A stretch of DNA of 60,547 nucleotides, counting the filler, from Sluysia triapertura (taxonomy: Eukaryota), in assembly GCA_046118255.1 (NCBI GenBank). It is 5 parts of 5 records of this genome, joined end to end, with 100 filler letters (N's around TTAATTAATTAA, not from the genome) between each part and the next. Parts side by side here need not be neighbours in the genome. Positions count along the whole stretch, not along the records: positions 1 to 11,237 come from JBJNIA010186969.1; 4 more parts are not named here. One strand, 5' to 3'. Within the stretch, counting starts at the first letter, position 1. Each line of letters begins with the position of its first letter. Below, one piece after another: positions 222 to 45,500 of the stretch. Made by a program: the position numbers and the translations under genes. The notes below the pieces were generated by a model that was not told the origin of the DNA, ran no database searches, and saw only the letters and a list, made by a program, of their open reading frames with translations.

Positions 222-2152
222 CTTAATGAGCATAAATAGCACAATAAATAATAATATTATTATTACTTTTAATAGCAATTTTTTTACGTAATCCTCAATT
301 ATACTTTCTAACGATGCTTAAAGTTATAAATAAAGCATTATTTCTATTACAACTTTGACCATTGTGAGCGTATATTTTAAATATTACAATCATCATATAA
401 TGCTTAACCCATTCGCTGCCAATCACGAATATAGTCGTGATACTTTCAATATTATTATAACGTACAACTTGTGGAGTTTGCAAACCTTTTATGGCCACAA
501 ACATAAATATATGTGTTTTTACAAAAATTCAGAATACGTCTATTTTTTATCTTGGCAGCGAATAATTTGTAAAAGCCTTCAAATTACGTTAAAATTAATT
601 TTTCGAATGGAATGTGAGTTTTATTAATTTTCTAAACCCTCTTTTTATCACAAAACTACATTTAAATCTACAAAAATGCTTATAAAATATAAATGTACAA
701 AATATAAAAACACAAAAGATGAAATATTGCATAAAAATTTAATTTTAATTTAATCAAACTATTTTCCACTAATTATCATAATCAATTTTAGACCATTAAT
801 TTACTTTACAATGAATACTTTGACCGTTACTTTAGAAAGTATTTCCATCTTTGTTCGGACTGTATTTGTCAATAATTTATCTTTTAATTCGACTTATAAA
901 TTATTTGTATGTCATTATCAAACTTATACAATATCATATTTAAATTTTAAAATTTTTCAGTCCCTATTTACTACACTCAATAAAAACCCATCTCTTTCCC
1001 TACCATTATATTATATCATAAATACTACATACATATACGAAATCTCATATTCAACACATACCATAAATCAATTAATAAATGTAACAAATTAATTTTATTA
1101 ATTTTTCATCATCATCATCATCATTATTATTATCATTATCATTATTATTATTAATAATATCATTTTAAGATTCCATTATTTCTGTTTTAATATTATACTG
1201 TACCTCCATACCTTCATACATTATTGTCTTGATGTTTTAGATATTCAAATAGATACTAATTTCAATATTTAGTTAAAATTATAAATGGTATTATTAAAGC
1301 AAGTGAGAACGTAACAAATTATATTATATTGAACTGGTTGAACTGCCAAATCAGATTGTCAAAATGTTAATAGTTGATTTAATCGAAGTGGTCATTGTCA
1401 AATGTTTTTTGAACAACAATATCAAATCACTGATATGACAGTTCAAATTAACTATCAGATCCTTGATAAAGTGAAACGATATGTGTGTAACAATAATCAT
1501 GTTTTTATTTAATAACTGGATAGATCATTCCCTCGTAAAGCAGAATTTTAAAATTAAGCGACTTTTACGAATGAATTTGAATTCCAAATTAATTTAAAAA
1601 TCTCAATAAACTCAAAACATAAAAATATTGTCAAATCTTATTTCTTTCTTCATTCGAAATGTGAAGTATTTTTGATTACAATATTTAATTAAAAATTAGG
1701 TTAAATTAGATAATTTATTTATTTAATTTTTTATAAATTTCCATACCCTTCTTGGAATTTATCAATCAGTATTTGTGTTAATATATTATCTAAGTTTCAA
1801 ACGATTGTTCAATTTTATTCAAGTTCTACCTCCATAGTCTTCATTGTGTCACATTTATTAATATCTTAATTTCGAATTAATTCAATAATTTATGCATATT
1901 GTCAGAAAATCCTGTTTCTTTCATTAGCAAATATGAAAATGATTTTTATTAATGTAAAAATTTGTTATCTGATTTTGAACATTTAATAAATTAAAATAAT
2001 TACCATATTCTAACGTGCCACAAGGAACCCTACTTTCCAAAACTTACTATTAGCAATTTGTAGATTTCTTTGTACATTGATGGTAGTATAAATGTTATTA
2101 AATTACACCATTTCATATTTGTATAGCTTGTAACATAATATTTGTAATATTT

Positions 2153-2764: not shown

Positions 2765-2917
2765 AATATTAAGAGGTTCATGAATAAATCTAGTCATTTC
2801 TTCACGAATTTTAGCTAATCGATCATCGACACGGTTTTCATCATCTGATACCACTATAAGTACATGAAGATCTTCATTCAAGTGTTCATAGTTCGGTTGA
2901 CCTTTGTTCAACTCCTC
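2765..2917 (-). CDS. STAR/Quaking-family (QKI/How/GLD-1-like) KH-domain exon
   Basis: CAG|...|GTTAGT bounded 153-bp exon: [51 protein letters not shown], matching QKI [25 protein letters not shown]. Confidence 0.9.
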
Positions 2918-3124
2918 CTGTAATACAATATTAAATGCGAATTTTAATAATACAATAATACAATTTTAAATGCGAATTATTAATGGGACGTATCCCGTAT
3001 AATTAGAAAATTGTAGAAATAAAATTTATTACACATAAAGTAACTTTTTAAGAAATTACAAAGAATCATTGTGGTTGGATAAAGTGCCATTTAGTATAAT
3101 TGAATCTAATAATCTAAAATTGTT

Positions 3125-5313: not shown

Positions 5314-5686
5314 TAAGGTGACCAGACGTCTCGCGACGGTTTTCAAAAGTCCCGACTTTTAGAATTAAGTTAAATTTTGTATTTATGAAAATCATTGTTT
5401 TGCGCTCAAAGAATCCTACGAAGACTAACATATTGCTTTTGCTACCCAGTTACATTGTATTTGTCTCTCAGATGATACATTTCGTGTTCGTACTGCGTGC
5501 TAGCAAGCTAATTAAACAAATAAATATTACAAATCTGCTATTTATCATAGAAAATTAAGGTAAGTCTTATGTTAAAAATAAAAAAATATTACGATACTAT
5601 TTTTATTCTGTATGAAAATTTTTGTTGATACTTCCCCTTCCTTCAGAGTTGCCCTGCTTTGCCCATCTAAAAATCTGGTCACCTTA
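5314..5686. mobile_element. hAT (Blackjack-like) MITE
   Basis: 13-bp TIRs TAAGGTGACCAGA / TCTGGTCACCTTA; near-duplicated flanks TTATCTTTA / TTATCTGTA overlapping the ends. Confidence 0.75.
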
Positions 5687-5899
5687 TCTGTAAACCACCT
5701 TGTAATCCAAGCATACGTATGCAACAAATGTTACAGTTATTGTTAACATGTTATAATACTCTAAGTCTTATTTATTATGATGATTACCTTACTAGTTATG
5801 TTTATGACAGTTTACATTATTCAAAATCATATGCAACCGACACATCAATTAATGTTTCTATTAGTTATCAATTATTTCATTCACCTTATTTACTAAATG

Positions 5900-6311
5900 A
5901 TCTTTTAGAACCTAAATTAGAATCGATACGAATCAATACGAATCACAAAATGAAATTAGGAATTTAGAAGAAACTATTGAAAATCTACAATATCAGATCA
6001 AAATAATTTTAAAGCAATCACTAATTAAACAGTCATTTAAAATTGTTAATAATTATGACCTGATCGGCATAACCAATGATGAATTAGTTAATGATCATGA
6101 TCCGAATTTGAAGCAGATACAGTCAGTGATACAAGCAATATCGATAAGACTCGAACAAATACTATTAATGAATAAACTATAAAAGAAAAAGATTTTAACT
6201 ATTATTAATGAAGCAGAAGAAATGATACATGTAGATTGTCCTATATCCTTCAATATAACAAACGTTGTGAACACCATTCGTAATCTAATGCATATTATGG
6301 TTCCATCTAAT
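5900..6311 (+). pseudogene. Decayed coiled-coil ORF cut off by the TGT element at 6312
   Basis: Frame reads NEIRNLEETIENLQYQIKIILKQ...IRLEQILLMNKL*KKKILTIINEAEEMIHVDCP...VPSN and meets TGTGATGGCC at 6312; no family recognised. Confidence 0.35.
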
Positions 6312-8027
6312 TGTGATGGCCAACCTTTTCATTCAAAATTTAAATCATTATCACACATACTTAATATCACTTTCTTAGCATTTCACATTTTACTTTTTCA
6401 GATTCATTAAAATTCTTTAACATTTTAAAACATTTTAAACTCATTAAAGTTTTACTCAACATCTAAAATCATCGAATGCATACTTCAAAAGTTTATTCAA
6501 AACATTTCAAGCTCACAATTTTTCAACGTTAAATCATTAATATCACTGAAAAACATTAAATTCACATTTCAAAATCATTTTAAATACTATAATCAAAATG
6601 GAATTTCTTTTAACATCTTTAACTAAATTGTTACCTTTTTTCTCATTTATACTATGTAAATTCTTTTAAAAATTCAATAAGAATTAGAAGAAAAGTAAAG
6701 AAATTTTATTTCAAGAATTTAATTTATTTTATCTTAAGAACAAAAATAATGTTAAAAATTTATGTTTTGATTAACTTTATTTATTTTTATTATGTATTAT
6801 TTTATTTTTATCATTTATTTTAAGTTATTATTATTAACATTATTATTACTAAGTTTTATTTTATTATTCATTATTTAATTTGTCATTTTATTTTATGTTA
6901 TTATTATGCATTTTATTACTGTTAATTAGATTTACCAACATTCACTCTAGTATCATCAATTAATGTTTTAATGGCCATTATCATCAGCATTTTTATCATT
7001 ATTTCGGTTGTCAGTGTGGACAGTTACTTAATCTTTTTAATAAAATCTCATTACATTTAACGTCAACATATCTATTACTTAAATGTTTATTTGTCATTGG
7101 TTTTTATGTGGCAATAGTAACATTAAAAATAGTAACAGCATCTGTTCAAAATAAATAAAATTCAGAATTAGAAAATTACTTTTGTACTTAATGAAAAATT
7201 TAATTTGTTATAAGGTCTAGATTATTAAAAATGAATCGTAAAGGTCAAAAGTTAATTCATTGTAATTGTAAAAGATTAGCCTTTCACAAAATTCATCTGA
7301 GATCAAACAATTAGTAATAAAGAAAAAAGCATATTTTGATGATCAACTTGAAATTCGTATCATATCTCCGATACGATACGAAACCCAAATAATAGATCTT
7401 GATCACTATTTTTAGTAGAAAATAAATTTAGTCCTGCATATTTGATCGAGTTAATGTTGAAAAGTGATCATAATAGCGACAAATGTTTAGAACAAACTCA
7501 AAACATCAGTGATGTACATGCTTTAACAAATTCAAATACTAATTATGATGCCATGAAATTATGTTGTTCAATTGATGCATCTACAAAATCGATAACTATT
7601 GTCGTTACAAGTTCTACACTTCAATATTTAAATTTATCCGATTTAGTAATGCCTTCTCGTATTCCCATATATCAATTCTCGACTCAAACGCAAATTGTAA
7701 TTCGAACGAAATCATCTGTTGATTCATTAAATGTTAATCAATACAAATCAGCACTTAATTTAGATCCTTCCCATGCATATTTATTATCAAGTAACATTCC
7801 TGTAATATACTTGACAGATATAAATTTTGATCCAACATTCTCACATATTGCAACAGAGATATAACAACAACCGATTTGGTGATTAACGCAACTAACCATG
7901 ATCAATTCGTACCTACACACCAATTAAAATAGAATTCCATAAAAGGATAATTCAGAATGACGTGGCACCTGTCTACATTGCATATCGTTAGATGGAAGAT
8001 GTTCAAAGTACGGTTTTAAATGCAAAT
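6312..8027 (+). mobile_element. TGT-terminated cargo element, copy A (arm + spacer + regulatory module + CCCH gene); cut by N gap
   Basis: Starts TGTGATGGCCAACCTTTT; C/A-rich arm to ~6650 shares AATATCACTGAAAA(A)CATTAAATT with 42740-42762; AT spacer; TTGTC-N6-GACAG at 7008-7023; cargo ORF from ~7231. Confidence 0.7.
7231..8027 (+). pseudogene. Intronless decayed CCCH zinc-finger gene (cargo of copy A)
   Basis: Fragmented frames including ORF 7442-7864; after a 1-bp frameshift the end reads TWHCLHCISLDGRCSKYGFKCK(gap), homologous to TWHCFYGIIQNGECYRYGRNCIYGH at ~41345-41420. Confidence 0.65.
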
Positions 8028-11000
8028 NNNNNNNNNNNNNNNNNNNNNNNNNNNNNNNNNNNNNNNNNNNNNNNNNNNNNNNNNNNNNNNNNNNNNNNNN
8101 NNNNNNNNNNNNNNNNNNNNNNNNNNNNNNNNNNNNNNNNNNNNNNNNNNNNNNNNNNNNNAAATTATTCTGCTGTTAGTTTACATCTATTATTTTATTA
8201 TTATTTTACATTATTATTATTTCTTTTATTACTTTAGATTATCGTGGATCACTATGACTCTGACACTTATAATAATTAAATTAAATTAAATTAAATTAAT
8301 TTAGCATCATTCAAAGAAATACATAATTATGAAAATTTGACCTGTGATAATTCAATATTATTTTGACTATACGAAGATTTTCCATGTTTTATTATGTATT
8401 TAATTAGTTAATGTTTAATTTTTAATATATGATTAATATATAGATAAAATATTACCTTTTCTTTAATTGCAGTTGCTAAGTTTTGAATAGAAATCTCATT
8501 TTTCTTGTTCGTTATTTTTAATTTTAGCAATTTTAGTTTTATCCTTAAATTATTTCTGTACTAGTTTCAATATTTTAATAAGTTAAAATAGTACTTTTTG
8601 ATTATATTATAATAATTTATTTTTACAAATTAATTAATTTATATTTTTGTTTTTGATTTCAGTTAATGAAATGTTGAATAAACTACTTAAAAGATTTGAA
8701 ATTAAAGTTGAAGCTGATAAGTTAATACTCATAACTTTTCAGTTCATTTTAAAACTATATAAACAATAGTTAAATAAAATTTAAAACTATTATAATAGTT
8801 TAAAGCGTTATCAATTATTACCCATCTTTTAAAAACTTCTCATAAAGGTTTGTTTTATTCGCTAAGAATATTATCAAATCTTTCGAAAATTTCTAAATTT
8901 TTGCTTTTTGTTTTTATGCTTGATTTTCAATCTCTAAACGTGGATAAATAAGAGAATGAAAATTATTATAAATATAACCACATCTGCGTTTTTTCTTTCT
9001 TCATTTTCTAATTAATGTATAATTATCTTTAAATTGGGTATTTGATATAATTCGTAATTCTCGATTAAAGTAAAAACCAATAAGATTATCTTTATGTACT
9101 TTAAATTTAGGAATGACTAAAACTTGTAAATCATTATCATTTTTCCACAATACATAATATTGTTAAAATTCATTGTGTTCTTAATTTTCTTAGTTTCTTT
9201 TTTAATGAAAATGTAAATTTTCTATTTTGTTAAAAGCAATTTCTCGAATATCAACATTTGCATGAAGCTATTTAACATTTTTTGTTTACTGTCTAAAAAA
9301 CCTTTGGCAATTTTTTAACTTTTACATTTTCAATATCGCCTCTTTCATTTACATATAAATCTTTAATTGTTGCATTTTTTATTTATATTTTTGTTTTATA
9401 TAAGTTACATTTACATGTTCTACAATAATTATCTCTACACTAATTAACTCTAATAGGATACTCTAACTTTAATAGGATAGAAGTAATTTTACACATAACA
9501 TACATCTATAGATGTAAAACATGCAATGAAATTCTTAAATCATTGTAATTATTTTAAATATTTTCAAAACACATAACTATTATTCAATTGGTATAACATA
9601 ATAGATAAATGTACTTGTGTCAATTGTTTTTCTATAGTTTTAAAACTATTTTAAACTTTAAATGAAGAAAAACCCTAAAATATTCCATTCGATAATATCA
9701 CATTCAATGTTATTATTTATATCAGTAATTTGAATGATTCTTTATAATTGTGATCGTTCAAATAGCATTATTTAGAGGCGATTTAGTAGTTTTTAATACA
9801 TTTTTGGAATATCAAAACTTAGAATATTATAGAAAAAGTATTATTCAATTTCAATTTGTGATTACCTGTTGGAATGAATATAAATTATGAGTAATCAAAA
9901 TTTAATAACAAATTAAATATTCAGGCTTAGAACAATATTTATCATTAACAAAATTATTATTATATTACTCTTATAAGCATTTATTACTTACTCCATCAAC
10001 AATTTATTTATTTAACATTTATTTATTACTTATTCAGGCTAAAAACAATATTTATTACTATTGTACATATTAATAAAATTTATTGTTATACATATTAACA
10101 AAATTATTTATATTTATTGTTTCGACAAAATTATTGTACACACTATTATGTAAGTTAAATTATTAAAAGCTAATAATAAACGATATAAATATCAGTTACA
10201 AAAATTCATATCACAATTTTTTTAAGTACAACAAAGAGGAGTATTTATCAATTTGGGAATGTTTTGAGATTGAAATTGTGAAGTAGGAGATATAAGTGAG
10301 TGATGTTTATTGTCTAGCCTGAAAAATAAAATCTTTAAAAATTTATTATTTTCGTTTGTTTTTTTAGTTTTGTTTATAAAATAAGTAATTATTTAGTTAA
10401 TTGTTATAAATAAATTTTTTCGTGTTTAATTTTATTTGTTTGAAATAAAACTAAAAATAGAACTCCAAAAACTTGATATTTTTTGAACAAACTAAACATA
10501 TAAATTGAATCCTTTGAGTAATAACAATATCTCAGGAGTTAAAATTGATTAAAGTTTAAAATGAATAACTTACTCCGCACTTCGATTTCAGGTGAGCGAA
10601 ACGATTCCAGATAAAATAGACATACTAGATAATTGCAGATGATATTTTCAGAATAAGCTAATATTAATAAGATTTTACCTCCAGAGAAATATGTTAAGAT
10701 AAAATATCACTAGAGAAATTAAAATTATTACTAAAAGATTAACAGTTATACAAATTAAGATTAAGACATCAGTTCTAAACATTTAAATTTCACGTCAATT
10801 CATTATATTAATAAACATGCCACATAAATTTTGAAGATTCAATCGTCAATAGAGAAGTTTCACTAAAATTTTAGCAGAAGCATTTTATTTACAAAGTTTA
10901 AATTTTACAATAAGATTCATTTAAGAAACACTTTGTTAGACGACAAATGATATAAATAAGAAATATCAAAAAAATAAATCCAAATTTAAAGTAGGTGAGA

Positions 11001-11078
11001 ATTAGAATTTTTAAGATTAAAAATAAATTTGAAAAAACAGTGGACATCAGAAATATTTGAAATATTTCTAATAACTTA

Positions 11079-11237
11079 TGTGTTGGCCAACTCACTGACC
11101 TAAATAAATTTCACAAAAAATTCTGCCTCAAACGTATTAAAATCTTATAAACTTTCAAGCATACATTACACATCTTTAAATCCATTTAAAACTAACGCAA
11201 CATAACTAAAACCATATTTTCAACAACATATAACAAT
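11079..11237 (+). mobile_element. TGT-terminated element, copy B (terminus and start of arm only)
   Basis: TGTGTTGGCCAACTC followed by G-poor, C/A-rich sequence up to the segment end. Confidence 0.6.
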
Positions 11238-11417: not shown

Positions 11418-11975
11418 GTAGAAAAACCAGATGAATGGTTACGTTATGGCAATCCGTGGGAAAAAGGTCGTCCAGAATATTCTTATCCGATAAATTTTTA
11501 TGGTTACTGTATAGATGATAACCAAGGTAAACGAAAATGGGTAGATGCTAATACAGTATTCGCTATGCCTTATGATACACCTGTTCCTGGTTATCGCAAC
11601 AATACATGTAATACATTACGATTATGGTCAAGTAAAGCGCCAACCAGTTTTAATTTAGGTACCTTTAACACTGGAGCTTATATTGATGCTGTTTGTGAAA
11701 GAAATAATGCGGAAAATATTTCTCGAGTTTTATATCCAAATGATAACTTCTTCGAAGGCAAAGAACTGCGTTTAAAGCAACAATATTTTATGGTGGCAGC
11801 TAGTTTACAAGATATTATTCGTAGATATGGTAAAGGAGCTGGTGGAGCATCTAGAACGAGCTTCGATGAATTTCCAGATAAAGTAGCAATTCAGCTGAAT
11901 GATACTCACCCTAGTATAGCTATACCAGAATTAATGAGGATTTTACATGACTTGGAAGGAATGGAATGGGAGAAA
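11418..11975 (+). CDS. PYG: Glycogen phosphorylase, internal exon (N-terminal half)
   Basis: TAG|[16 protein letters not shown]...[13 protein letters not shown]...[26 protein letters not shown]...[19 protein letters not shown]...MEWEK|GT; intact, with phase-0 introns at both ends. Confidence 0.97.
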
Positions 11976-12062
11976 GTATGTTTTAGTAATTTATTCTTAA
12001 TGTTTGACTTTATATTGACAAAGTTTGTTTTTCCCAATTACAACAGTCCTTAAACTTTATTA

Positions 12063-12608
12063 TACAGGGTTTTGTAATCCTATATTAATATGTATGTAAT
12101 CCTCAATTGTCAAATGTACAGTCCTATATTAACATATAATTAAAAATTACACAATGTAGATGCATTATTTTTGTCGATAGTATTCCGTTCTTCGGGCACG
12201 AGAAAAAGCCTTTCCTTTATAATATTCATTTTAGATAATCGCTTTGAAATGACAGACCTTGAAATTGTAGTATGCTGTATCTCTTGGAGCTTGAAATAAA
12301 CTTCCAGTTGAGTTATGTCATTATTGTAGCTTGCAATATTAAAAATTAATTGATTAGTTTCTGTTAATTGTTCATTTCTTGACCTACATGTTCCTTTGCA
12401 TTTCTCTCCACTAATCACAAAAACGTCACTGGCTTCATTTTGTTTAATGATTTTTGCAACTGTTCGGCTACAAACCTGGAGAGATGAATTGTTTGACCTT
12501 TTGTCGTAAACATTCAAACAATGTTATCATAAATCTCTTTCTAAAAATATTTTCTATTAAGTTAATATATGACTGCATACATGTTAATATAGAATTACAA
12601 AACCATAT
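12063..12608 (-). mobile_element. Internally deleted Tc1-like element (transposase N-terminal HTH region) with TIRs
   Basis: TIRs (TACAGGGTTTTGTAATCCTATATTAATATGTATG vs reverse complement at 12570-12608); ORF 12140-12517 with ISRSVISKRLSKMNIIKERLFLVPEERN, typical of Tc1/IS630-type transposases. Confidence 0.75.
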
Positions 12609-12899
12609 ATTAGAGTTTATGTTAATCTAATATTGAATTTAATATTTTAGAATTTTTTTGATAAGTTGTTTATGTAAGTTTTTATTTGGTCAAAAAATTT
12701 CAGAGTACATATATTATATCACTTTTGTATGGGGTTGGTTTTCAATTTTAATTACTGACAATATTGCTTACTAGTGTCATTTTGTAATTAGTAATTGTAT
12801 ATATTTTATATTGACATTCTAATAAATTAGTTCTTTTTTATCATTTTCCGATTTATCTACATTTTACTACCTAATAATCCTACTTGAGAAAATATCCAT

Positions 12900-13750: not shown

Positions 13751-13794
13751 TACAATTAAATTAATTAGAAATATGATAATCATTTACGAATAAC

Positions 13795-14415
13795 CTGAAT
13801 AAATTAGCACTGCCAGATAACAAAGTAGCATCGTAGAAATCACTTGGAATGACAAATATATTATGTTTCGATTCTTTTATAAAACGATTAAAGTTAACTG
13901 TCACTATTCGCTTTTTCCAAATTATTTCAAAAGATTTTAAAATAACATTAGATTTACTTTCACTAGCCGGAAATGGTGAAGAATCTACTCTTAAATTATT
14001 GAACGAAATTTTTGATTTCGAAAAAGTGTTTAATTGTGGGTGACTTACTGTAAAATTATCAAGCTCAATTGCTTTTACTATACAGTGCAAAATTAAACAA
14101 TATTTTTTAAAAATATGTTTCTTTTGAAGTGAACAATCTATTGACATATTTGTTGGTGATATTGATTTATTTAGTAAATGTTGAAAGTGATTATCTGACA
14201 CTTCAAAAACACTGCAATATTTATCCAAAAGTTTTTGCTTTTTCCTACAGATATTGGCTCCTTTGCATATGTCTTCGATTGCATATTCATCGTACAAATC
14301 ACAGTAATTATTTTTCAAAAGCACATTTTTTAACAAGTAATGTATAATTATATCAGTGAAACGACGAATTGGACTCGTAAAATGACAATATATATCTTTA
14401 TTCAATGAGAAATGT
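13795..14415 (-). CDS. HELZ2-like RNB (RNase II/R domain) protein, internal exon
   Basis: TAG|A-HFSLNKDIYCHFTSPIRRFTDIIIHYLLK is the RNB signature; downstream IVKAIELDNFTVSHP...FNNLRVDSSP...IIWKKRIVT parallels the post-RNB segment of HELZ2; probable donor AG|GTTATT at 13794. Confidence 0.8.
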
Positions 14416-14971
14416 CTAAATAAATAAAAATAATAATTATTATTATTATTGTTAAGTATATAAAATTTGTATATTTGCATTATATTAAAATTTGTTCCTA
14501 CGATTTGTGTAAATAAAAAATATTTAAATAAATAAAATTATTTAATACAAAATTAACGCAATAGAACTTTTTAATTATAAATTTTAAATTATTTTACTTA
14601 TTTAATAAGTAAAATAATATAAAATTATAAATAAAATAAAGTAAAATAATATTTTTAATTAAAATTATTAAATAAAATAATGTAAAATTTTTAAATAAAA
14701 AAATCATTTTTCTTTTAATTTAATTTTATTTAATAAAACTAATTCAATTAATTTTGTTTCATATAAAATAATACAAGAAAGTAAAACAACCAATAGATAG
14801 TGAAATTTGGACGCCATTATTAAAAAATTTGATATTCAATTGGATTTTGCTATTTTTAATGCCTCTGAAAAATCAGTCCATATTTAAATAAATTTATTTT
14901 AATAATTTGTTAAAATAATTCTTACTTTAACAAAGGAGAATTGAAAAAAATTACTAAAAATCATTATTGTG

Positions 14972-15063
14972 TACCGTAGATCAATTTCAGTTTTAAAATC
15001 CAAAGTGCTAAACACCTCCTAAGTGCTAAACACCTCCTAAGTGCTAAACACCTCCTAAGTGCT
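14972..15063. repeat. 18-bp tandem repeat (AAGTGCTAAACACCTCCT x3.4) next to a TACCGTA transposon-like end
   Basis: Exact units at 15003, 15021 and 15039, partial unit at 15057; TACCGTAG at 14972. Confidence 0.85.
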
Positions 15064-15779: not shown

Positions 15780-16430
15780 CATTGATCGTTCAGTAATTCT
15801 AAATGGTTCTCATCATTTTCTGCAACCAAATAATATTGTAAAGGATCAGGCCATAAATCATATTTTATCATATCACCCAATGCCACCGTAGAATTAGAAA
15901 TATCATATGTAAACTAATGCATCTGATACCGGATCCTTTGCTACCAGAGTCAACTTTATTGTCTGACTCATTGTTGGTTTTAACGTACTTTTTTTCCATC
16001 TTTCCATTCCACTCCATCACACGTTGTTTTAATTTCTGATTCACCAACATGTACAGATTTAGTAATGATAGCATCAGTAAAGTAATCATTTGGAACAAAT
16101 GTTAACATAATTTTAAAACCTGATTTAATATCATCAAATTCTTCTGCATCGAGGCTAACTAAAGATTGTAATAAATACTCGTCGAGTAATTAAAGTCATT
16201 AACCGTGGATGATTACTAAGAGTATTGATCCAGAAATTTGGAATAGATTTTATTAAGTTCATACGCTGTTGAAATAGTGGTTGTCTTTTTAAATTATACT
16301 TCTCTACCTTGCTCATTCAATTGATCAATATCGCATTGTACTTCAACATTTCTTTCTATTAAAGAATTCAACGTTGGATCATCATCAACATTGCCGTTAC
16401 ATTCAGATTTTGGGATTTTAGGAACAAATG
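15780..16430 (-). pseudogene. SET: Intronless decayed SET/TAF-I (NAP-family histone chaperone) copy
   Basis: Frameshifted pieces IERNVEVQCDIDQLNEQ, RQPLFQQRMNLIKSIPNFWINTLSNHP, FDDIKSGFKI..F..NDYF and LGDMIKYDLWPDPLQYYLV align in order with SET (IEHIDEVQNEIDRLNEQ, RQPFFQKRSELIAKIPNFW, FEDIKSGYRI, LGEVIKDDIWPNPLQYYLV); no introns. Confidence 0.9.
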
Positions 16431-16899
16431 TTATATTTCTATTGTGTTTGTTACAAATCGTGGCGAAAAATAACTTGTGTTTTACTACTGATTTTAGTAG
16501 TTCATTTATAGCGTATAAAATGGCATCTTTCAACGTTGCCGTANNNNNNNNNNNNNNNNNNNNNNNNNNNNNNNNNNNNNNNNNNNNNNNNNNNNNNNNN
16601 NNNNNNNNNNNNNNNNNNNNNNNNNNNNNNNNNNNNNNNNNNNNNNNNNNNNNNNNNNNNNNNNNNNNNNNNNNNNNATGATAATTTAAAATGCTGAATG
16701 ATTCTTGTTTCTGTAAATTTTTCTGATACCAAAGACTAACAGAAGAAATAAGATATACTTTTTTATTTGGTAACTATAGTACAAATTTTATTATAAATTT
16801 TTATTTTCTATATAAAATTTATAGATTTCAAAATTATAAATTTCAAAAATTATAATTTCATGATTATATAAATAAATTAATTAAATTCTGAAGTTACGA

Positions 16900-17820
16900 A
16901 TTTTGTTTTATTATGGTAGATTTAGTCTTTTGAATGCATCTTTAGAATTTTGTGACGTATGTGAAATTTTGCTTGATGATAAAGCATGCTCTGATTTATT
17001 CGATGTCATAGATTGAGCATCACATTTTTGGTCAACAATATTTATACTGTTTCGATTTTATTACAGTAAATTATTCTATTATTGTAGCTATAAGAATTAA
17101 AATTTACAAATTCTTTTAGTTTCACAAATAATATATCTTTAATAGATTTATTCACAGGAGTAGTTTCATTACTGTTATTATCGTCATTACTATCACTGAT
17201 TCGTGGGGACTGTGAGATTTAGCTTTAGATTTAAAATTAGATTCTTTATGTGATTTGATCATTTACAAGCCAAATATGGTATATGACACAATGTCGGGAA
17301 TTTTCTTATCACGTAATAATAATCCGTAATAATAATAATCATATTTTTAATGTAACATTGATTAAATGTGCTTGAGTCATTTGTTTGATCATTCAATCTT
17401 TAATAAAAGAACTATCATCAGTTCTATCAACAAATAAGCACTGTATGAATTCCAGTATATCTAATGATTCAGGAAAGCTGTTAAGGCCTTTCGCATTGTT
17501 GATATTAGTCAAAAAATTAGGATAAATATTATTCGTGTTGTAATGAGCTGCTCGCAACATCTACAAATATCACGAAAGAATGTACGAATTGGTTTAATAT
17601 CATGATGATACAATTGACAAATATTTTCGTGAATCAATCCATTATTGACAGAGTTAATTTAGAAAACAGAAGGGAATGCAATTGAAAATGGATTTAGTTT
17701 GTTCGGTTTTAGTAATGAATTTGAAATCGTTCATCATGACACTTACATGCACCTACATGGGTTTCTGGGCATTCTCTTTTCAGTGCCAAATTTATCTTTT
17801 TTTGAAATTGGTGGAAACCA
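16900..17820 (-). pseudogene. Decayed Cys/His-containing ORF (first cargo of copy C), family unknown
   Basis: Fragments ECPETHVGACKCH and ENICQLYHHDIKPIRTFFRDICRCCEQL, followed by Ser/Asn-rich frames with many stops. Confidence 0.35.
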
Positions 17821-17829
17821 GAAGAAGTA

Positions 17830-18047
17830 AAATTGAGTAAGAAGAGAATTATAAAAGAGAAATTAAGAGAAGCTGAAGATGTTTTTATAGAAATTTTATT
17901 TTTTTGATAAAAATTGAATTTTTGAACTGTAAGAATTTTAAGTTATGAAGGTTTAATATTTTATGTTGTTTAGTTGTTATGTGGTTGAGTATTTGTATGG
18001 TTGTTATGAGGTGTTTATAATTCCGAATGATGGGTTGGGTCAGCACA
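17830..18047 (-). mobile_element. TGT-terminated element, copy C (terminus and arm)
   Basis: Minus strand begins TGTGCTGACCCAACC, followed by a G-poor C/A-rich then pyrimidine-rich arm; more diverged than the other copies. Confidence 0.5.
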
Positions 18048-19661
18048 AAGATTATTTCTCTTTCGNNNNNNNNNNNNNNNNNNNNNNNNNNNNNNNNNNN
18101 NNNNNNNNNNNNNNNNNNNNNNNNNNNNNNNNNNNNNNNNNNNNNNNNNNNNNNNNNNNNNNNNNNNNNNNNNNNNNNNNNNNNNNNNNNNNNNNNNNNN
18201 NATAAAGTTTAAATTTATTTTAATACAAAATTATTTAATAAATAGTTTTTAAATCATTAATTTATTAAATGTAACTTTATAAAAATAATACTACTAAATA
18301 AATATATTTAAATAAAATGTTATCTTTAACACAATATATAAAACGATTGTTTACATCAATTAATTAATTAATTAATTAAATTTATTTTTATTTTTATTTT
18401 TATTTTTATAATTTTTGATCAAAATTTTGTTTCAATTTCCACAAACAAATTATGTGATACATTAAAATGTGAAATAGAGTAAAACAAAAAAATTAAATAA
18501 TTGAAAAAATAGTTTAAGTCTCAAATTAAAATCATTTAAATAATGTATAATTGTTTTCTGGTTTCGATGCATTTTGAAAAATTATTTAATAATTTTTACT
18601 CACATTTTATTTTCATAAAATCATTTTCATATTTTATTTATACTTATATTTTTTATTTTTTATTTTTATATTTTTATATTTTAGTATTTCAATATATACT
18701 GTGTTTCTCTGAAAATACAGGATGATTTTAATTTAAGACCTAACCCTAAATTAAATTCTGGTTGATAATCGATTAGGACACCTAATAAAAGTCAATTAAT
18801 GGCTTGAGATGGCGTTCAATGTATTCTTTAGTATATAAAATAAAATAAAATAGATTCTGAGATACTTACTGACTATAACAAGATTCTGATTGTGATGATT
18901 CACTTTCAGACAATCTTCCAAGTAAGACTTTATTAGCAATTATCAAACATTTCTTCTTTGTCGCACACTGTCCACGAGAATGACTTAAAATAATTAAATT
19001 CAGTTAAACGAAAACTTCGCAGAAACTTTGGAATCCAGTGTGACTTGCAAAACATTCCAGAGGACAACGACCATATGGTCATTTTGAATGATTCATAGTT
19101 AGTGGTTTTCAAACATAAAACATGTATTAATTAGTAAATGTAGATAAGTTTATGCATGTTTTTTGTTTATTTAGAAATTTCATATATAATTCTCTACTTT
19201 GTAACTTTGTTTTTCGATAGATGAAAATAAGTGTCATATTTCAAGAATGATCCGATTGAAATTGATAAAGATAGAATGAAGAAATTGCATAATCATCTGA
19301 AGAACCCTCTAAAACGACTCAGAATAATAATAATTATTATTATCATTATTATTATTATTATTACTTCAGCACACTTTTAAAATTCGTATTGGATTTGCAA
19401 AACTATATCAACCTTTTCATTCCTACTGAGATCTGTATGTCCCAATAAATTTCTAATAAACAATGCAAATATTTATGAGTATGCATGTTTGTACATGTTT
19501 TCTACAATTTTATCTTTTTGTTTTGCTAGTTTTACATAAAACTTGATTGTATTTCTTGATTATACGCACTGTGTGATTTAAAAATAATTTCTTATTTAAA
19601 ATTTAAATATAATTTATATGTTTAATAAATGTCAGAAGAAAGTATATTGCATGGACTTTAT

Positions 19662-20175
19662 TTAAAATTCAGTATAGACACCATCATTCGCCACCAGTTT
19701 ATCAAATCGACCAGGAATCGCATCAATTGATTTCACAAGAAACTCGTGCGAGATGAAAGCCATAACTTCACATATTCGTCCTTCAAGTTCTTCCAAATTT
19801 TTTGGTTTTGTTGAATAGACTTTCTTTTTTAACCAAACGCGGAGAAAAATGTCGCATGATGTTAAGTCAGGACTTCTGGATGGCCTTTTGTACGAACCAC
19901 GACCCATCCATCTTCCAGGAAATTTATCATTGAGCCATTCACGAACAATGGGGAGTTCCATCTTGCATGAAAATCAAATCTTCAATATTATCCCAATCAT
20001 GCTCAACATATTGAGGTACCTTTCACATTCATAGATCACGAAGGAACCCTGTGATCATAAGTTTTTCATGACAATTCTTGATATTCTTTGGGTCATGTTT
20101 TCTCTTAATGAATCTCCAAACTTCGTAACGTGTAGCTATCTGGACACATTCTTGTAGTGTAAGACGTCCAACCAT
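19662..20175 (-). mobile_element. Tc1/mariner (IS630) superfamily transposase relic, DD37D/DD41D-like
   Basis: FMQDG, VREWLNDKFPGRWMGRG, RSPDLTSCDIFLRVWLKKKVY and LEELEGRI motifs with frameshifts. Confidence 0.85.
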
Positions 20176-20426
20176 TTTTGTAGGGTTTTGAAATTTCAAA
20201 CAAATTAATTAAAACAAATTCACAAAACTGATCTAAAAAGAAAACGATAGCATAGATTAAGTTGTCATACGTTAAGTAAGATATACACAGAAGTTGAGCA
20301 ACTTATTACGGTATTTGAATTAAATTGTAGATATTTGAAAATATGAAGTTACTTTTCATAATTGCTCAATTACTAATTAACAATATGACATACTGAATAC
20401 ATTTCTTGTATCTTTACTTATATTAG

Positions 20427-20748: not shown

Positions 20749-21399
20749 GTAAGTTTAATTTTATTGTTTAATTTAAAGAAATATTAAACCTTATTTGTAG
20801 AAGCTCTATCTAATCAACGACAAGGTCACATTTGACAGTGAATCAAACTTCGAAAAAATCCAAGTAATTAAAATGAGTAAAAAAGAACTTGCTGAAGAAC
20901 TTGAAATCTCCGTACACCCAGCGGAACTCATGGTTCACATTAGAAATACGAGGAATATGTTTATGTATCATATTCTGGTAGAAATTGTAAATAATGTGTT
21001 TTGAACCTTTTTCCGAAAGAAGACTTGCAGAATTATCTAAATAACCCTTCTGAATTAAAATGATGTTTGGTATCAAACTTTCCGATACAATTCAATGTTT
21101 TAAAATCTTTCACTTCTTACTAAGGTCTAATGTAAATTCGAACTGTTCAGCCTATTCCATTCTCGCTCTCGCATCTCCTTCCATTCAACGTTGAAATGCT
21201 GAAATGCTTGCAGGAGAACACGTAGTCGCTTTCGTAGATTGTAGACTCCTAAAATATAACAAATAAAAATTAAACAATGATTGAATATTAAAGAATATTA
21301 TTAATTTAAGTATGAAGTGCATTTAATGATTTGAGTATTAAGGACAACATCATTGTGATTCTCATTACGTATCGAATTGTTCATTTTTTGGACATCGTT

Positions 21400-22600
21400 G
21401 GTAGCCTTTATAAGATTGGTCATGGATGATAATTATGTTGGTACCAATATAACTAATTTGATTGACGGTATGGTGAAATTTGCATGAGGATCAGAATTTG
21501 CTGCATCGTCCTAAATTGTTGGACTGGAATTGGAATTGTCCTAATCTGATTTTCCTGATTTGAGATGGTTTTGGTTATAGATGCAGTTGTTAAGGAATTA
21601 TTGAAAGGATTCGAAACCTTCGAAATAAATCTTTCTCCCATAGTAATAATTGCATTCATATAAGTTTTATCAATGTAACGAGGAATACTTGGTAAAAATC
21701 ATATAACACTAATCTTAGCCACCAAGTCAAAATCTAATTCTGCATTATTAATTTCTTTTAAGTTCGTGTATAAATGAAACATAAGATTGTAAAATATCTT
21801 GGGCATCTTTACATTACTATTCAATTCTGTTGTAATGATGATTAAAGATCGCATAACGCGCCAAACATTTAAAAAAGGAAACGCATTGATATACATTAAA
21901 TTTTTACTTATGAATTTGATTAAATTACAACGCCAGGATGAATTAAGAAGTTTGAAACCTAATTTAGTTGGTAATTCGTCGATTCGTATAATATGTTGAC
22001 TAAATTTGATTGTATCATTTGTAAAAACGAACCAACTTTTAATGCTTCTAATGGAATATTAAAATTACTAAAATCTAGGATTTGCAATATCATACAACCA
22101 GTAGACAAAGGTATAATTGACGAGGACCGTTGACAGTGAAGTACTTTCGAAATTACCGGTTTATTTCCAAACTTCTCCAAAATTACAAAAGCAGATTGAA
22201 TATAGCTTTAAATCTTTCAATGTGTCACCGTCTTTGTTGCACCATGATTTTGGAATATTCGAAATGTATAAATTTGTTTGAACTTTTTCGTTTTCATTAG
22301 GATATTTAACAGTATAATTTGAATAATTTTGTTGAATGTATAAGACTGTCTCGAGCATCATCTGCAGTCATGCGGTTATAAACTTCACACTTGCCGTCTT
22401 CTTCGATGGATACTTTAACAGACCTTACTTGATTTTTATCCTTAGCCAATTCCATTATATTTTCATCGGTAAAATGAGACGGTAATCCTTTCAAACATAA
22501 ATTCGTTTTCGATACTTTACCAACAGTGTCACATTATTTGTCGTGATATTTTTATTGCTGACTATCAACACAGTCGGTTGTTCCATCATTAATAAATTTA
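21400..22600 (-). pseudogene. Intronless decayed RBMS/shep/SUP-26-like tandem-RRM gene (cargo of copy D)
   Basis: VSKTNLCLKGLPSHFTDENIMEL ~ RBMS1 [33 protein letters not shown] ~ PTNLYISNLP; LEKFGNKPVISKVL ~ LKPFGQVISTRIL; frameshifts, no introns. Confidence 0.8.
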
Positions 22601-22933: not shown

Positions 22934-23132
22934 GATTGGACGTCCAAGCACAGCAAGTAAAATTACGATGTAAAAATAGAACTGATAGGACGCCCAATCA
23001 ACTGTTGTGTTAATGTTATTGGAATTGTAAGAATGTATGCATGTGTATTACAAAATACTAAATATTGAGCTATACATGTTCTGTGTACTATTATTATTGA
23101 TTATGTATTAAGCAACTGTCATTTGCCGACAG
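22934..23132. promoter_or_regulatory. Palindromic module of copy D (inverted CCAAT pairs, CTGTC-N7-GACAG)
   Basis: GATTGGACGTCCAA 22934-22947; TGATAGGACGCCCAATCA 22983-23000; CTGTCATTTGCCGACAG 23116-23132; located between the arm and the cargo gene start. Confidence 0.6.
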
Positions 23133-23861
23133 TTTACCAAGTGATGTGAACTGATTTTAATTAAAACTGTTGGTTAATGACAGGTTAAATGAGGTGATAG
23201 CAACTAATAATAATGCTAATAATATTTATTACAATAATTAAAATTAATAATAATAAAATTAATACATAAATTCTTATAATATGTTTCGTTCTTTGCATGA
23301 TCTTTCTTTAGCTAATTTAAATAAAATTCTTTCAAAAAAAATACGTATAAATAAGATCATTTTAAATGCATAAATTTATTTCTTTTAAATCTTTTCGGAA
23401 TCTTTTCTTTTCTTAAAATATAAAAATTTCCTGGCAAAAGAAATTAATTAAAATTCTTTTAAAGATCTTTACTACAAATTAATTTACACGAAGTTCTTTT
23501 GATTACACTATTTTAAATTGATTCTGAATTGTGATTCTAATGTTTTTCGTTGATATACAAGATTGGATATCGAAGGATTGTAAACTTAAAATATTTTGAA
23601 TTAATTTTGACGTTTTCTACGATAATTTAAGATGTAAATTGTGATTCAAATGTTGTAGGATTGTGAGATTTAGATGTTTTAAATGAGATTTGAAATGTAT
23701 ATTAATGGTTTGAATGTAAGAATGATTTTGATGTTTTGAAATGAAATGATTTTAGAGGACCGAAAAAAGGATGTATATAAATATAAAATGTTAGTAAATG
23801 AGATATTATAAATGAAATGATTATTTTAAAATTCTTTAAGTTAAAAAGGTTGGCCACCACA

Positions 23862-31814: not shown

Positions 31815-31875
31815 CTAAATAAATAAGAACAATTTTTACTATATATAATAGTAAAAAATGTTCTTATTTATTTAG
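31815..31875. repeat. Near-perfect ~28-bp hairpin
   Basis: CTAAATAAATAAGAACAATTTTTACTAT-loop-ATAGTAAAAAATGTTCTTATTTATTTAG, one mismatch. Confidence 0.9.
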
Positions 31876-35670: not shown

Positions 35671-35981
35671 TCTTGGTTCCATCTTCGTTGCAAAGAATTC
35701 TGTAATTACGATAATATGATATAATATAAGCATGAACAAATATATATAAATGATAAAAAACATTACTTTTATAAGTACCGAGTGTATTCATAGCTGAGCC
35801 AGATGACGTCTCTTCCACTAACATAGTCAGATCATCATAATCAATCTTCGTATTGCTTAAATTTCTGTCTCTGAATCTATACGTAAATTCTTGATCTTTA
35901 ACTTCAAAATGACCATGTGGCGCCCGCACCAAACATGGACTGAGCAAATGCATCGATGTAACATAAATGTCATCTTCACCA
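35653..35981 (-). CDS. Last two exons of an unidentified host gene (35779-35981 and 35653-35699)
   Basis: Open frame ...LLSPCLVRAPHGHFEVKDQEFTYRFRD...SSGSAMNTL, 79-bp AT-rich GT-AG intron 35700-35778, then EFFATKMEPRARRLG*. Confidence 0.65.
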
Positions 35982-41109: not shown

Positions 41110-42110
41110 GCTTACCTCGACGAGACTAAGATTGAGATTCTAAAAAAGAATAAAAAATATAAATATATAATTCGATTTATACAGAAATAAGTTAAATTAA
41201 AATTCAGAATTACTTTTAAGTTCTCCTTGTTCCTCGAGTCTAATGATGTTGATGTCAAGCTTGATAATAAAGTACTGATCCTACCATGGTGATCACTGAG
41301 ATTCGATGTTAAACCAAACATATCCATGATTTCAAAAGCTTGATGACCATATATACAATTTCTACCATAACGGTAACATTCACCATTCTGTATTATTCCG
41401 TAAAAGCAATGCCATGTTTGTAATATTTGTCTTGATTGACGTAAGGTTGTGACTTTATACGAGATGTGATGCTACTTTAATAACGTTTCAAAAGGCCAAT
41501 CCTTGCTTTTACTTTTGACTAGTTTTTTATTGATATTGTTTTATTTGTGATCACGTATGAGTCGACATCAATAGAGACATCTATACTTTTATTTATCTTC
41601 ATCACAATATAGATTAAATCATATTGTTTAATTTGAGGTGCATGAAATAGTTCAGTCAATTTTCTTATATTAACATGTTTTACAACTTGCTTGTCTACTA
41701 ATCTATAAGTATTAATATTAAAAAGCAAAAATTTCTTAACAGACAATGTTTTTAGTTCATTTTCTGAACATTGACTATATCTCATATTCGAAGATGAAAT
41801 TAAATAATAGAGATAAGACTACAATCAATATCAGTTGAATGAGTTATAATTTTGTATAGATATTTTTATGATGATCATAATTGTTAACAAATTTTGTTTG
41901 TATCGAATTCGTTACATCGTTTAACAAAGAAATTTCGTTAGATTCGTTTTCCAGATTATCTTTTACTTGATCAATATTGACGGAACAGACAAAATAACCA
42001 TTTTTGAGATTATGTTTTTTAATAAAGTTAAATACTGAAGTTGTATCAAAATAACTAAATAACATATAGAACGGGAAACTAATTGTGTTTTCTGTATTCA
42101 TCATTGGACG
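41110..42110 (-). pseudogene. Intronless decayed CCCH zinc-finger gene (cargo of copy E)
   Basis: Collinear ORFs 41844-42104, 41519-41785 and 41112-41327; QTWHCFYGIIQNGECYRYGRNCIYGH (C-x9-C-x6-C-x3-H). Confidence 0.7.
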
Positions 42111-42300: not shown

Positions 42301-42503
42301 TGATTGGACTTCCAATCCTAATTAGTGATAAAAATACAAAAGTAGAATTGATTGGAAATGATTGGACGTCCACACTTGAATGGTGATGATATTAATAGAA
42401 ATGAAATTGATTGGAAGTCCAATTTTGAGACAACAATTTAATAATATTTACTGACAATGTCAGTACTAATCAAAAAGAATTACAAAGCTGTCAAGGATGA
42501 CAG
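42301..42503. promoter_or_regulatory. Palindromic module of copy E
   Basis: TGATTGGACTTCCAATC 42301, GATTGGACGTCCAC 42360, GATTGGAAGTCCAAT ~42409, TACTGACAATGTCAGTA ~42450, CTGTCAAGGATGACAG 42488-42503. Confidence 0.6.
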
Positions 42504-45500
42504 TGGTAGTAACCACAAAATAACGATTTTAATTAAAAATATTATAATATTATAATTATAATATTATTATAATTATTATTATAATTATAATAAATAAACG
42601 AAATAATGATTATAATAAAGTAAAATATATTTAATAAAAACACAAATCTTTTCTCTTTCTGTCAACATAATCTGTCTTTAAATGACTTTCTCTTCTTAAC
42701 ATATTATTTCTGATTATGTCTAAATGGTTTCAAGATGTTAATTTAATGTTTTCAGTGATATTGGAGATTGAATTGATTTGAAGATGTCTATTCGTCGATT
42801 TAGGATGTAGTTGTGATTCTATTGTTATAAGGTAATGAGTAAATGTTTTAAATGACGTTTAAATAGACACTGATGGTTTTGGATGTAATTATGATTTGTA
42901 AGCTTGTGAATTGTAGATTGATGGTTTTAAATGTAATTGTAATTCTGATATTATGAATTATGGGTTGAAATGTTTTAAGTAAAATTTAATGTGTGTTAAT
43001 GGTTTTGGATGTCGAAGTCATTTTGGTGCAATAAAATTGTAACTTAAAATGTATTAAAATGAGAATTGTTCTAGTGGATCTGAAGAAATAAAATATGAAA
43101 AAGGTTTTGATACAAAAATTGGTAAATGTTATAGAATATGCAATATCTGGAATTAAATTTAAAATGTTTTAAATTAATTTTTATGTATGTGACTGATGGC
43201 TTTCGATGTCGAATATGATTTTGCTGTTGTGAAATTTTGTGTTTAAAATGTTTGATAGCAATGACAATTGTGAACATTCTGAAAAAATGATTTTATTGTG
43301 CATTGATGAAATAAAATTCTTAAAGTATTTGGTTGACCACGACACCGCGAACAGTTTTTGAATCAGAATTTTTTTCAACTAACCTAATAAATAATTTAAT
43401 AAAATGAGTAATTATTGTTAAATTCAAAGTCATTTCTCGAATGAGTTTATTTAAACTTTCCACAAATGCATAATTATGATATATCGCTTTACAAATCTAA
43501 TTAAGTACCTATAATTTATGCTTTGTTTTATTTAGTTATTTATTTAGTTATTAATAGTTACATATTAGGTATTTAACATTTATTTGAGAAATTACTTTTG
43601 AAAAGAATACATTTACTTGTTAGTAGTGATCGGTTATCAATACAAAAAAGAATTAAAGTAAATTAATACTAACATAAATTGAATTAACTAATCTTAATCG
43701 AACATTAACGTAAAATGAAAATAAATTCCACTTAAATATATAGATTTATTAATTGAAATTAGTTATAAAACTTATCTTTGACTGCTCAGAATTAATAATT
43801 TAATAACTTTAACTTTCTATTAGCAAAACTTTAAAACTCTTAGCTATTTAAATCTTCAAAAATGCATGTATTCTGAAATATTAAATCAAAATATTTATAA
43901 ACAAACAGTTTCACAATGGGTTTTCAAAATTGTATCAACTAAATAGTCAAGTATCTTATGTCGTACCGGTAAGTCATATTTAACTCATATTCAAGTAATG
44001 AAGGTTTATTGACACAACAATAAGTTTATACAAATTGTGAGAACAATACATGTGCAATGTATATAATATATGTGAACACAAAATCAAATTACTAAATTAA
44101 ATAAAGAAAAAATTAAATTAAGTGGAAATAAATTAAGTTGTAAATTAAATTAAATTAATAAATTAAAATGCAAAAAATAATTATTATCAAACATATTACT
44201 ATTAAACATTATCAGAAAAAATAATAACCAATAAAAAATTAGTCAGTAAATAGAGTTATTTATACAATATATTTTAGAAGTCTATTCGAGAATTTAAAAA
44301 AGCAACAATAATTACAGAGAAAAACACTAAAATTTCTATTTAAAAATCAGTAATCATCATTTTAAATTCATCAAAAGAAAACTGCATGTATATATAAAAT
44401 ACTATTTTTATTTATTTTTTAATATTAAATATAATATTAAAAATAAAAATAATTTTATTTATTAATATTAAATTATTGATACAAAAATCATCAAGTGAAT
44501 CATTTATGTAATAAAAAACTTACTAAATATGATAAAGACAAAAATTAAAAGACCTTCTACCTGCTATATATAATTGAAAGATAAAGATAAAGTCCTTTAG
44601 GTAAGCCAAACATTGTTTGTAAGTCTTTCACTATAGGCAAACCAATTTATAAATTGGCTTCTTTACATAAACAGCCTAATTATGCAAAAAGGCAACACAA
44701 TTTTATTCAACAGATTTTACGGAATTCTAATACATGAACTCTTAATTTAAATTTATTCAGTCAATGAGCATGCATTAACATTTTTTTCTGTGTAACTTCC
44801 CACCTATTATTTCAATTTAAGATTTCAAACCAGTTATAATTCGTAACTTAAAAATTTATGACAGCATATAATTTTAATACCAGATCTCTAAACTTATGAA
44901 CATCGACGTAAAATTATTGAACTTTCGATTTAGAAATACTTTGAAACTGTTTATAAATTCGTATACAATTTTAATATTTCTTACAAATATCGTCATTTTT
45001 GTAATTTTGTGCTTAACCTTTATTTAACATTTAAATTAATGGTCAAAATATGCGAATGTTTTAAAATCTTTTATGAATATTTTAATGATGAAAAATAGTT
45101 TAAGTAGTTGAGTTTAAAAAATCGGTTTACAGCAAACTTTGCGGTTTTTATGAAGGTTAATGCACTACGTCATATAGTTCTTTTCTTATTTATTTCTAAA
45201 ATATCTTTCTTGTGGTTAATCTTTCAATATCATTAATTATATAACCGATTTCATTTGTATAAATAAGACTCGGTTTTTGTTATTATTCGGCCAATTCCTT
45301 ATTTATAACATTTAATTTTATTTTTTAGCTTTGGTCATATAATTTATCTATTTACATTCGTTTTGTGTTAGCTTGTATTCATTTGTATACATAACTATTT
45401 GTTTATCGTTCATTCCGTAAGTCTTTCTTTGTTCATTAACTGTGGCACATTTCCACCTGTTTTCTAAAACCTACTTTGTTGACTCATTTTTTTCAAGGCG

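What the first reader, a model, noticed from the sequence alone, without database searches (positions are those of the whole stretch)
7950..8027. Two element copies carry homologous CCCH fingers with unusual C-x9-C-x6-C spacing
Copy A reads TWHCLHCISLDGRCSKYGFKCK (after a 1-nt frameshift, cut by the gap) and copy E reads TWHCFYGIIQNGECYRYGRNCIYGH, giving a shared TWHC-x6-(D/N)G-x-C-x2-YG-x2-C pattern. TIS11/ZFP36-type fingers are C-x8-C-x5-C-x3-H, so both loops are one residue longer. Each finger sits about 230-250 codons after the apparent gene start, behind an unrecognised and much more diverged region. Homologous arm plus homologous cargo is the best internal evidence that arm and gene move together. 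Inference: a lineage-specific RNA-binding family spread by the element.
Basis: partly seen in the sequence, partly recalled or inferred. Interest (0 to 1): 0.8.

Follow-up and report, generated by a model that had tools for sequence, protein, structure and literature searches.

The report
Repeat-linked broken CCCH genes in flatworm
In a parasitic-flatworm-like genome, three broken copies of an RNA-binding zinc-finger gene each sit behind the same transposon-like end and promoter-like stretch, which hints at a mobile cassette, although movement is not shown and the finger's spacing is a known type.

Summary
Both fingers are real and alike beyond chance (0 of 300 shuffles). A needs a frameshift for its TWH lead-in, and its His lies in an N gap. 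The C-x9-C-x6-C spacing is uncommon but not new: both fingers align without net gaps to Pfam's Unkempt-like CCCH model, below its cut-off. The upstream ~230-250 codons of A and E show no detectable homology, so the shared cargo is the finger plus an intron acceptor 268/269 nt further on. New here: arm C also carries a decayed finger, behind RBMS1-like RRM sequence. All three copies with alignable arms (70-77% identical) share a palindromic motif and a finger; arms B and D do not. The window is five joined contigs; one carries a neodermatan flatworm marker. All cargoes are broken. No second end, target duplication, primer site or transposase was found. Best reading: an old, probably abundant, non-autonomous element family (TGT end like LTR/Ginger termini, own promoter, spliced CCCH gene with exchangeable N-terminus). 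Main rival: an old paralogue family with a conserved upstream module.

The parts
6312..6600 (+). Arm A: TGT-initial end motif followed by G-poor, internally repetitive non-coding DNA
   Evidence: no codon bias in substitutions
7009..7032 (+). Palindromic motif (TGTC-N6/7-GACAG plus conserved tail) in linker A
7231..7959 (+). Broken upstream coding-like region of copy A (longest ORF 7403-7864, 153 aa); family unknown
7960..8027 (+). CCCH finger A (C-x9-C-x6-C; frameshift after lead-in; His in N gap)
8162..8279 (+). Intron-like T-rich tract, AG acceptor before 8238 and a 13-codon candidate last exon (inferred)
11079..11237 (+). Arm B: end motif plus G-poor DNA, cut by the contig end; only weakly alignable to the others
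17760..18047 (-). Arm D: variant end motif plus G-poor DNA; weakly alignable; no palindrome and no finger behind it
23500..23861 (-). Arm C
22935..23131 (-). Linker C: palindromic motif and CCAAT-containing repeats shared with E
22161..22530 (-). Decayed RRM (22530-22312; best solved relative RBMS1) and a second RRM-like start in the next frame
   Evidence: second RRM by eye and only (one search found no RRM)
21470..21535 (-). Finger remnant C: C-x6-C-x3-H intact, Phe at the first-Cys position, stop at the conserved Gly position
21249..21368 (-). Candidate 120-nt intron after finger C (acceptor failed the strict filter)
42711..43344 (-). Arm E, lengthened by internal ~150-200-nt degenerate duplications
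42303..42502 (-). Linker E: palindromic motif and three CCAAT-containing repeats
41418..42104 (-). Broken upstream coding-like region of copy E; family unknown
41343..41417 (-). Complete CCCH finger E, C-x9-C-x6-C-x3-H
41116..41213 (-). 74-nt GT-AG intron (phase 0) and a 24-nt in-frame micro-exon followed by a second donor (inferred)

Best explanation
A, C and E are decayed copies of an old, probably abundant, non-autonomous mobile cassette. SHOWN: each starts at a shared TGT end motif, continues through homologous G-poor non-coding repeats and a conserved palindrome, then a coding-like region with one CCCH finger; the part before the finger differs, and in C it holds RBMS1-like RRM sequence. 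INFERRED: (1) the TGT end is the site for an integrase-type enzyme supplied in trans, as in Ginger and Gypsy-type ends; (2) the palindrome and CCAAT repeats form an internal promoter; (3) the transcript was spliced, so the unit more likely moved as DNA than through a spliced RNA; (4) the protein bound single-stranded A/U-rich RNA through the two aromatic positions of the finger, with exchangeable N-terminal modules taken from host genes, and acted after transcription on the element's own RNA or on host mRNAs. The three copies seen are no longer coding.
For: Homology begins at TGT; none of 6 flank pairs is significant (best 15 of 200 shuffles). Five TGT-plus-G-poor starts on 3 of 5 contigs in 60 kb suggest high copy number. 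Starts match published integrase-end motifs: TGTNR in A, C, E and TGTGGYG exactly in C, with one mismatch in the other four. Fingers behind 3 of 3 alignable arms. Strong acceptor 268 and 269 nt after the first Cys in A and E; such sites are in 1.3% of 40-nt windows. Third codon positions of the fingers are 6 of 19, 7 of 19 and 7 of 22 identical while arms are 70-77% identical: ends are better kept than cargo. RBMS1 match E 1.3e-5.
Against: No inverted or direct second end within 4.9 kb (A), 12.5 kb (C) or 7.3 kb (E); no target duplication, primer site or transposase/integrase with tool support. With synonymous sites near saturation, flanks would be unalignable under plain duplication too, so the sharp boundary does not prove mobility. 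D has no finger; B is truncated. The C finger is only suggestive window-wide (21 of 200 shuffles) and was noticed before it was tested. The A offset of 268 nt includes a 134-N gap of unknown true length; C's acceptor and a real host acceptor failed the filter, which was set after seeing the sites. Short contigs are enriched in repeats, so abundance may be overstated.
Confidence: 0.5

Rival explanations
1. An old host paralogue family of single-finger CCCH genes with a conserved upstream regulatory module (perhaps once an LTR or transposon end), multiplied by segmental duplication and now dying. The arm is a promoter, not a mobile end.
For: Introns and a micro-exon; synonymous changes at conserved finger residues (4 of 7, 4 of 7, 3 of 4); one-ended arms; solo LTRs act as promoters of coding genes in the tapeworm Echinococcus (PMC4558846, passages).
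Against: Three copies plus two bare starts in 60 kb of separate contigs is dense for an ordinary family; unrelated N-termini need domain exchange; the end motif resembles integrase sites.
Confidence: 0.3
2. The arms are 5' LTRs of a long Gypsy-type retroelement and the CCCH gene is an accessory or gag-like first ORF, the rest lying beyond the contig or deleted.
For: Starts fit the CsRN1-clade LTR motif; giant LTR elements with captured domains exist in planarians (PMC6431247, passages); an integrase-like decayed stretch precedes arm B (recalled resemblance only).
Against: No complementary CA end, primer site, second LTR or pol domain; B is not a twin of A (18 of 200 shuffles); introns in the cargo.
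Confidence: 0.12
3. Arms are solo repeats that landed by chance upstream of unrelated CCCH pseudogenes; finger likeness is generic.
For: Upstream regions are unrelated; part of the finger match is generic.
Against: Same orientation and 1.7-2.3 kb spacing three times; shared linker motif; shared rare loop lengths and TWH; matching acceptor offset; the three best finger scores among 120,958 positions all lie behind arms.
Confidence: 0.08

Closest known systems
Unkempt-like CCCH finger (Pfam PF25427, zf-CCCH_UNK)
   Same: Best Pfam match for both fingers; E residues 4-30 map on model 6-32 and A residues 2-21 on 8-27, equal lengths, so loop lengths agree.
   Different: 17-20 bits for E and 15 for A against a cut-off of 31.1; one finger, whereas Unkempt has two clusters, ZnF1-3 and ZnF4-6 (PMC12136788, passages).
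TIS11/ZFP36 (tristetraprolin) finger
   Same: G-x-C, YG, third Cys, His and both aromatic positions align (PDB 1m9o; E 3.5 and 0.63, not significant).
   Different: Both loops longer; single finger, not a tandem pair; lead-in differs (tandem layout and lead-in are recalled).
Ginger1/Ginger2 DNA transposons
   Same: TGTNR ends; Ginger1 ORFs carry introns and extra host-type domains (PMC2836005, passages).
   Different: No second inverted end, 4-bp duplication or integrase; cargo is RNA-binding, not OTU/Ulp1/PHD.
CsRN1-clade Gypsy LTRs; taeniid ta-TRIM solo LTRs
   Same: 5' motif TGTGGYG (PMC3601003 Table 3); LTR promoters fused to coding genes in a flatworm.
   Different: No 3' end motif, primer site, second LTR or gag/pol.
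Pack-MULE-type gene-capturing elements
   Same: Conserved ends with variable host-derived cargo mobilised in trans (PMC6431247, passages).
   Different: Only one end seen; a constant finger exon rather than random fragments.
RBMS1/MSSP tandem RRMs (copy C only)
   Same: First RRM half matches PDB 6m75, E 1.3e-5.
   Different: Decayed, frameshifted, and followed by a CCCH finger.

Membership tests
CCCH zinc-finger class | C-X4-15-C-X4-6-C-X3-H | tested here: met
   Definition in PMC2267713 and PMC2478707; met in E; A lacks a visible His, C lacks the first Cys
CCCH zinc-finger class | Zinc binding and RNA binding | not testable with these tools
   Single-sequence model without zinc was all-helical and found no match
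TIS11/ZFP36 | C-x8-C-x5-C-x3-H spacing | tested here: not met
   x9/x6 in A and E
TIS11/ZFP36 | Two tandem fingers | tested here: not met
   One finger in E and in C; A is cut by a gap
Unkempt | Pfam PF25427 score above 31.1 bits | tested here: not met
   Best 20.3 bits, E 0.00052
Unkempt | Six clustered fingers | tested here: not met
   One finger per copy
Unkempt | Loop lengths of the UNK-like model | tested here: met
   Equal-length matched stretches; no Unkempt sequence itself was retrieved
Ginger DNA transposons | TGTNR terminus | tested here: met
   A, C, E yes; B, D no (3 of 5)
Ginger DNA transposons | Paired terminal inverted repeats and 4-bp target duplication | tested here: inconclusive
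   No partner end on the contigs; it could lie beyond them
Ginger DNA transposons | Gypsy-like integrase ORF | tested here: not met
   No Pfam match in the cargo frames or in 8162-11237
Gypsy LTR retrotransposon (CsRN1 clade) | 5' end motif TGTGGYG | tested here: met
   Exact in C, one mismatch in A, B, D, E; 72 such 7-mers occur in the window
Gypsy LTR retrotransposon (CsRN1 clade) | Second direct LTR, primer-binding site, gag-pol | tested here: not met
   primer site judged by eye

The most novel reading that the evidence does not exclude
A high-copy, integrase-mobilised element family in a Piwi-lacking parasitic flatworm lineage carries its own promoter and a spliced, selected CCCH RNA-binding gene whose N-terminus is swapped for captured host modules such as RBMS RRMs, making it a mobile source of new post-transcriptional regulators or an element-encoded handler of its own RNA.
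Probability: 0.3. Interest if true: 0.75.

Novelty: new variant of a known kind. Interest (0 to 1): 0.48.

Why it matters
Parasitic flatworms have lost the Piwi pathway (PMC8191739, abstract start in a listing), and how their mobile elements and host coexist is open. A repeat family that carries a selected RNA-binding gene with exchangeable host domains would be a testable case of an element shaping RNA regulation there. If the rival holds, it is a lineage-specific gene family in decay, of interest mainly to flatworm genomicists. The finger spacing alone is of little interest.

Tried and rejected
Homologue searches: E finger region, 35 candidates, none at E<=10; RRM alignment of C, 82 candidates, none (the alignment was poor); phmmer on 1.84 billion representatives, 4 hits at E<=0.001, none with a CCCH family in Pfam (two RCC1-repeat, two other repeat proteins), so rejected. 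Atlas: E gave scores 0.80-0.87, with unnamed viral clusters first and CCCH clusters from rank 3, a lead only; A's ORF gave bacterial Ig-like clusters at 0.90 with low recognition, rejected. Single-sequence folds: pLDDT 66 and 34; fold search no match at E<=0.001. Arms as coding sequence: rejected, no codon bias in 7 blocks and non-triplet gaps. Arms as structured RNA or tRNA: 3 Rfam matches, all at an unrelated hairpin near 31800; 0 tRNAs. B as 3' LTR of A: rejected. Six other skewed stretches are not arms. Kolobok: its CCCH is a THAP motif with TTAA sites, unrelated. Assembly error as the cause of the breaks: unlikely, since host exons of 133-290 codons are intact. Paper searches (listings only) showed no description of this family; subscription papers, Repbase and supplements were not seen. 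The names of the four representative hits stayed unknown, and no eukaryotic genome or read collection could be searched.

Full report
Setting. The window is five contigs joined by N44-12 nt-N44 linkers at 11238, 24083, 35982 and 47738; G+C is 17-31% per kb. A glycogen phosphorylase exon on contig 2 is 75-78% identical to trematode and cestode proteins and 69-72% to the other animals compared. In a tree of 24 rows it falls inside the 12-row neodermatan clade (support 100/99), outside the sampled digeneans and cestodes, unresolved beside a monogenean. Copies A and E are on other contigs and are assumed to come from the same assembly.

Observation. Both fingers are present as described. In A the three cysteines are in one frame after a stop, the TWH lead-in is one base out of frame, and the His falls in an N gap. 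E is complete. The pair aligns at score 55, reached by 0 of 300 shuffles. Part of that likeness is generic to CCCH fingers, as the weak tristetraprolin alignments show; TWH and the two longer loops are specific.

Spacing. C-X9-C-X6-C-X3-H is not among the 23 plant groups tabulated in PMC2267713 (passages and Table 1), and 79% of mouse motifs are X7-8/X5 (PMC2478707, passages), so it is uncommon. It lies inside the definition C-X4-15-C-X4-6-C-X3-H in both papers. The best Pfam match for both fingers is the Unkempt-like model PF25427, with matched stretches of equal length in protein and model, at 15-20 bits against a cut-off of 31.1. The fingers thus look like an Unkempt-type finger in loop length but the genes are not Unkempt (one finger) nor TIS11.

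Arms. Of 72 TGT-initial 7-mers within one mismatch of TGTGGYG, five are followed by G-poor, C-rich DNA: 6312(+), 11079(+), 18047(-), 23861(-), 43344(-) (thresholds set after seeing the arms). The arms are non-coding and hold degenerate internal repeats. Behind them A, C and E share a TGTC-N6/7-GACAG palindrome with a conserved tail: 3 of 5 such palindromes in the window, about 1 expected, though up to 5 arose in 300 shuffles. C and E also share CCAAT-containing repeats (11 matches against 0.7 expected; A lacks them). Sequence upstream of TGT is unrelated in all 6 pairs tested.

Cargo. The regions before the finger do not align: A-E is reached by 7 of 60 shuffles and equalled or beaten by 2 of 14 unrelated controls; A or E against C by 16-21 of 25. 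A scan of 120,958 translated positions with an A+E finger profile ranks a third site next after the two inputs, at 21535(-), behind arm C: C-x6-C-x3-H is intact, the first-Cys position reads Phe and a stop stands at the conserved Gly. Shuffles reach its score 21 of 200 times window-wide and 2 of 1000 times within C's cargo; I saw the site before testing it. A against C scores 0 of 100. Upstream of it C holds a decayed RRM whose best solved relative is RBMS1 (E 1.3e-5) and a second RRM-like start that tools did not confirm. After the finger, E has a 74-nt GT-AG intron and an in-frame 24-nt micro-exon, and C a candidate 120-nt intron in another phase. Strong acceptors lie 268 nt (A, across the gap) and 269 nt (E) after the first Cys; 1.3% of 40-nt windows hold one; C's site at 287 and one real host acceptor failed the filter. 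No frame of any cargo is open (13-35 stops per frame), while host exons nearby are intact.

Selection. At residues kept between fingers, 4 of 7, 4 of 7 and 3 of 4 use different codons, and third positions are 6 of 19, 7 of 19 and 7 of 22 identical, whereas the best local arm alignments are 70-77% identical (local alignments bias this upward). The fingers diverged as working protein, long ago; the arms are either constrained or younger.

How it most likely works. The shown anatomy is end motif, repeats, palindrome, variable N-terminus, one CCCH finger, intron. The end motif fits published integrase-recognition ends: TGTNR of Ginger and Gypsy (PMC2836005, passages) and TGTGGYG of the CsRN1 clade (PMC3601003, Table 3; that this clade is known from flukes is recalled). 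I infer a non-autonomous cassette moved in trans, more likely as DNA since introns are kept, with its own promoter and an RNA-binding product; the two aromatic positions that stack on bases in TIS11-type fingers (recalled) are kept in E and C. Confidence 0.5. Mobility itself is not shown: no partner end lies within 4.9, 12.5 and 7.3 kb, and no transposase or integrase has tool support. Because neutral sites are near saturation, an old paralogue family with a conserved upstream module would give the same sharp boundary (0.3); solo LTRs do serve as promoters of coding genes in Echinococcus (PMC4558846, passages). A long LTR element (0.12) and chance (0.08) fit worse.

Novelty. No relative was found in the protein collections, which is weak evidence for short decayed queries. 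Six paper searches (listings only) showed no account of this family; supplements and subscription papers were not seen. Gene-carrying elements are a known kind (PMC6431247, passages). I rate this a new variant of a known kind, interest 0.48; the bold reading has probability 0.3 and interest 0.75.

Noticed in passing
15780-16540 (-): Intronless, multiply frameshifted NAP/SET-like pseudogene (Pfam NAP E 1.4e-08).
   Followed up: partly
13764-14537 (-): Intact exon with the end of an RNB domain (E 1.5e-12); the continuation looks HELZ2/DIS3L2-like (recalled).
   Followed up: partly
35156-35980 (-): THOC2 N-terminal exon (E 3.1e-09).
   Followed up: partly
11418-11984 (+); 56875-57177 and 59888-60289 (-): Glycogen phosphorylase exons on two contigs; consecutive parts of the protein, so one split gene or two paralogues.
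   Followed up: partly
10500-11078 (+): Decayed stretch resembling the C-terminus of Polinton/Ginger2-type integrases directly before arm B; resemblance is recalled, Pfam found nothing.
   Followed up: partly
54256-55615: Element with ~260-nt inverted repeats (86% overall, 97% over 172 nt) around an 865-nt core with no Pfam match.
   Followed up: partly
12051-12619 and 31654-32222: Two ~570-nt stretches bounded by 46-nt inverted repeats; the first holds a Tc1-like ORF fragment (by eye), the second an inner hairpin at 31803-31887 that weakly matches miRNA models.
   Followed up: no
19660-20200 (-): Decayed Tc1/mariner-like transposase by eye; no Pfam match.
   Followed up: partly
2775-2930 (-): Exon resembling the Quaking/STAR KH region (recalled); no Pfam match.
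   Followed up: partly
5600-6311 (+) and 16900-17750 (-): Coding-like broken sequence of unknown family directly upstream of arm A, and behind arm D.
   Followed up: partly
14999-15063; 40350-40421; 45875-45981: Short tandem arrays (18-nt and 19-nt units) and a ~107-nt palindrome.
   Followed up: no
38940-39260 (+), 850-1100 (+), 10200-10480 (-), 48680-48960 (-): Other strongly G-poor stretches that do not align with the arms.
   Followed up: partly
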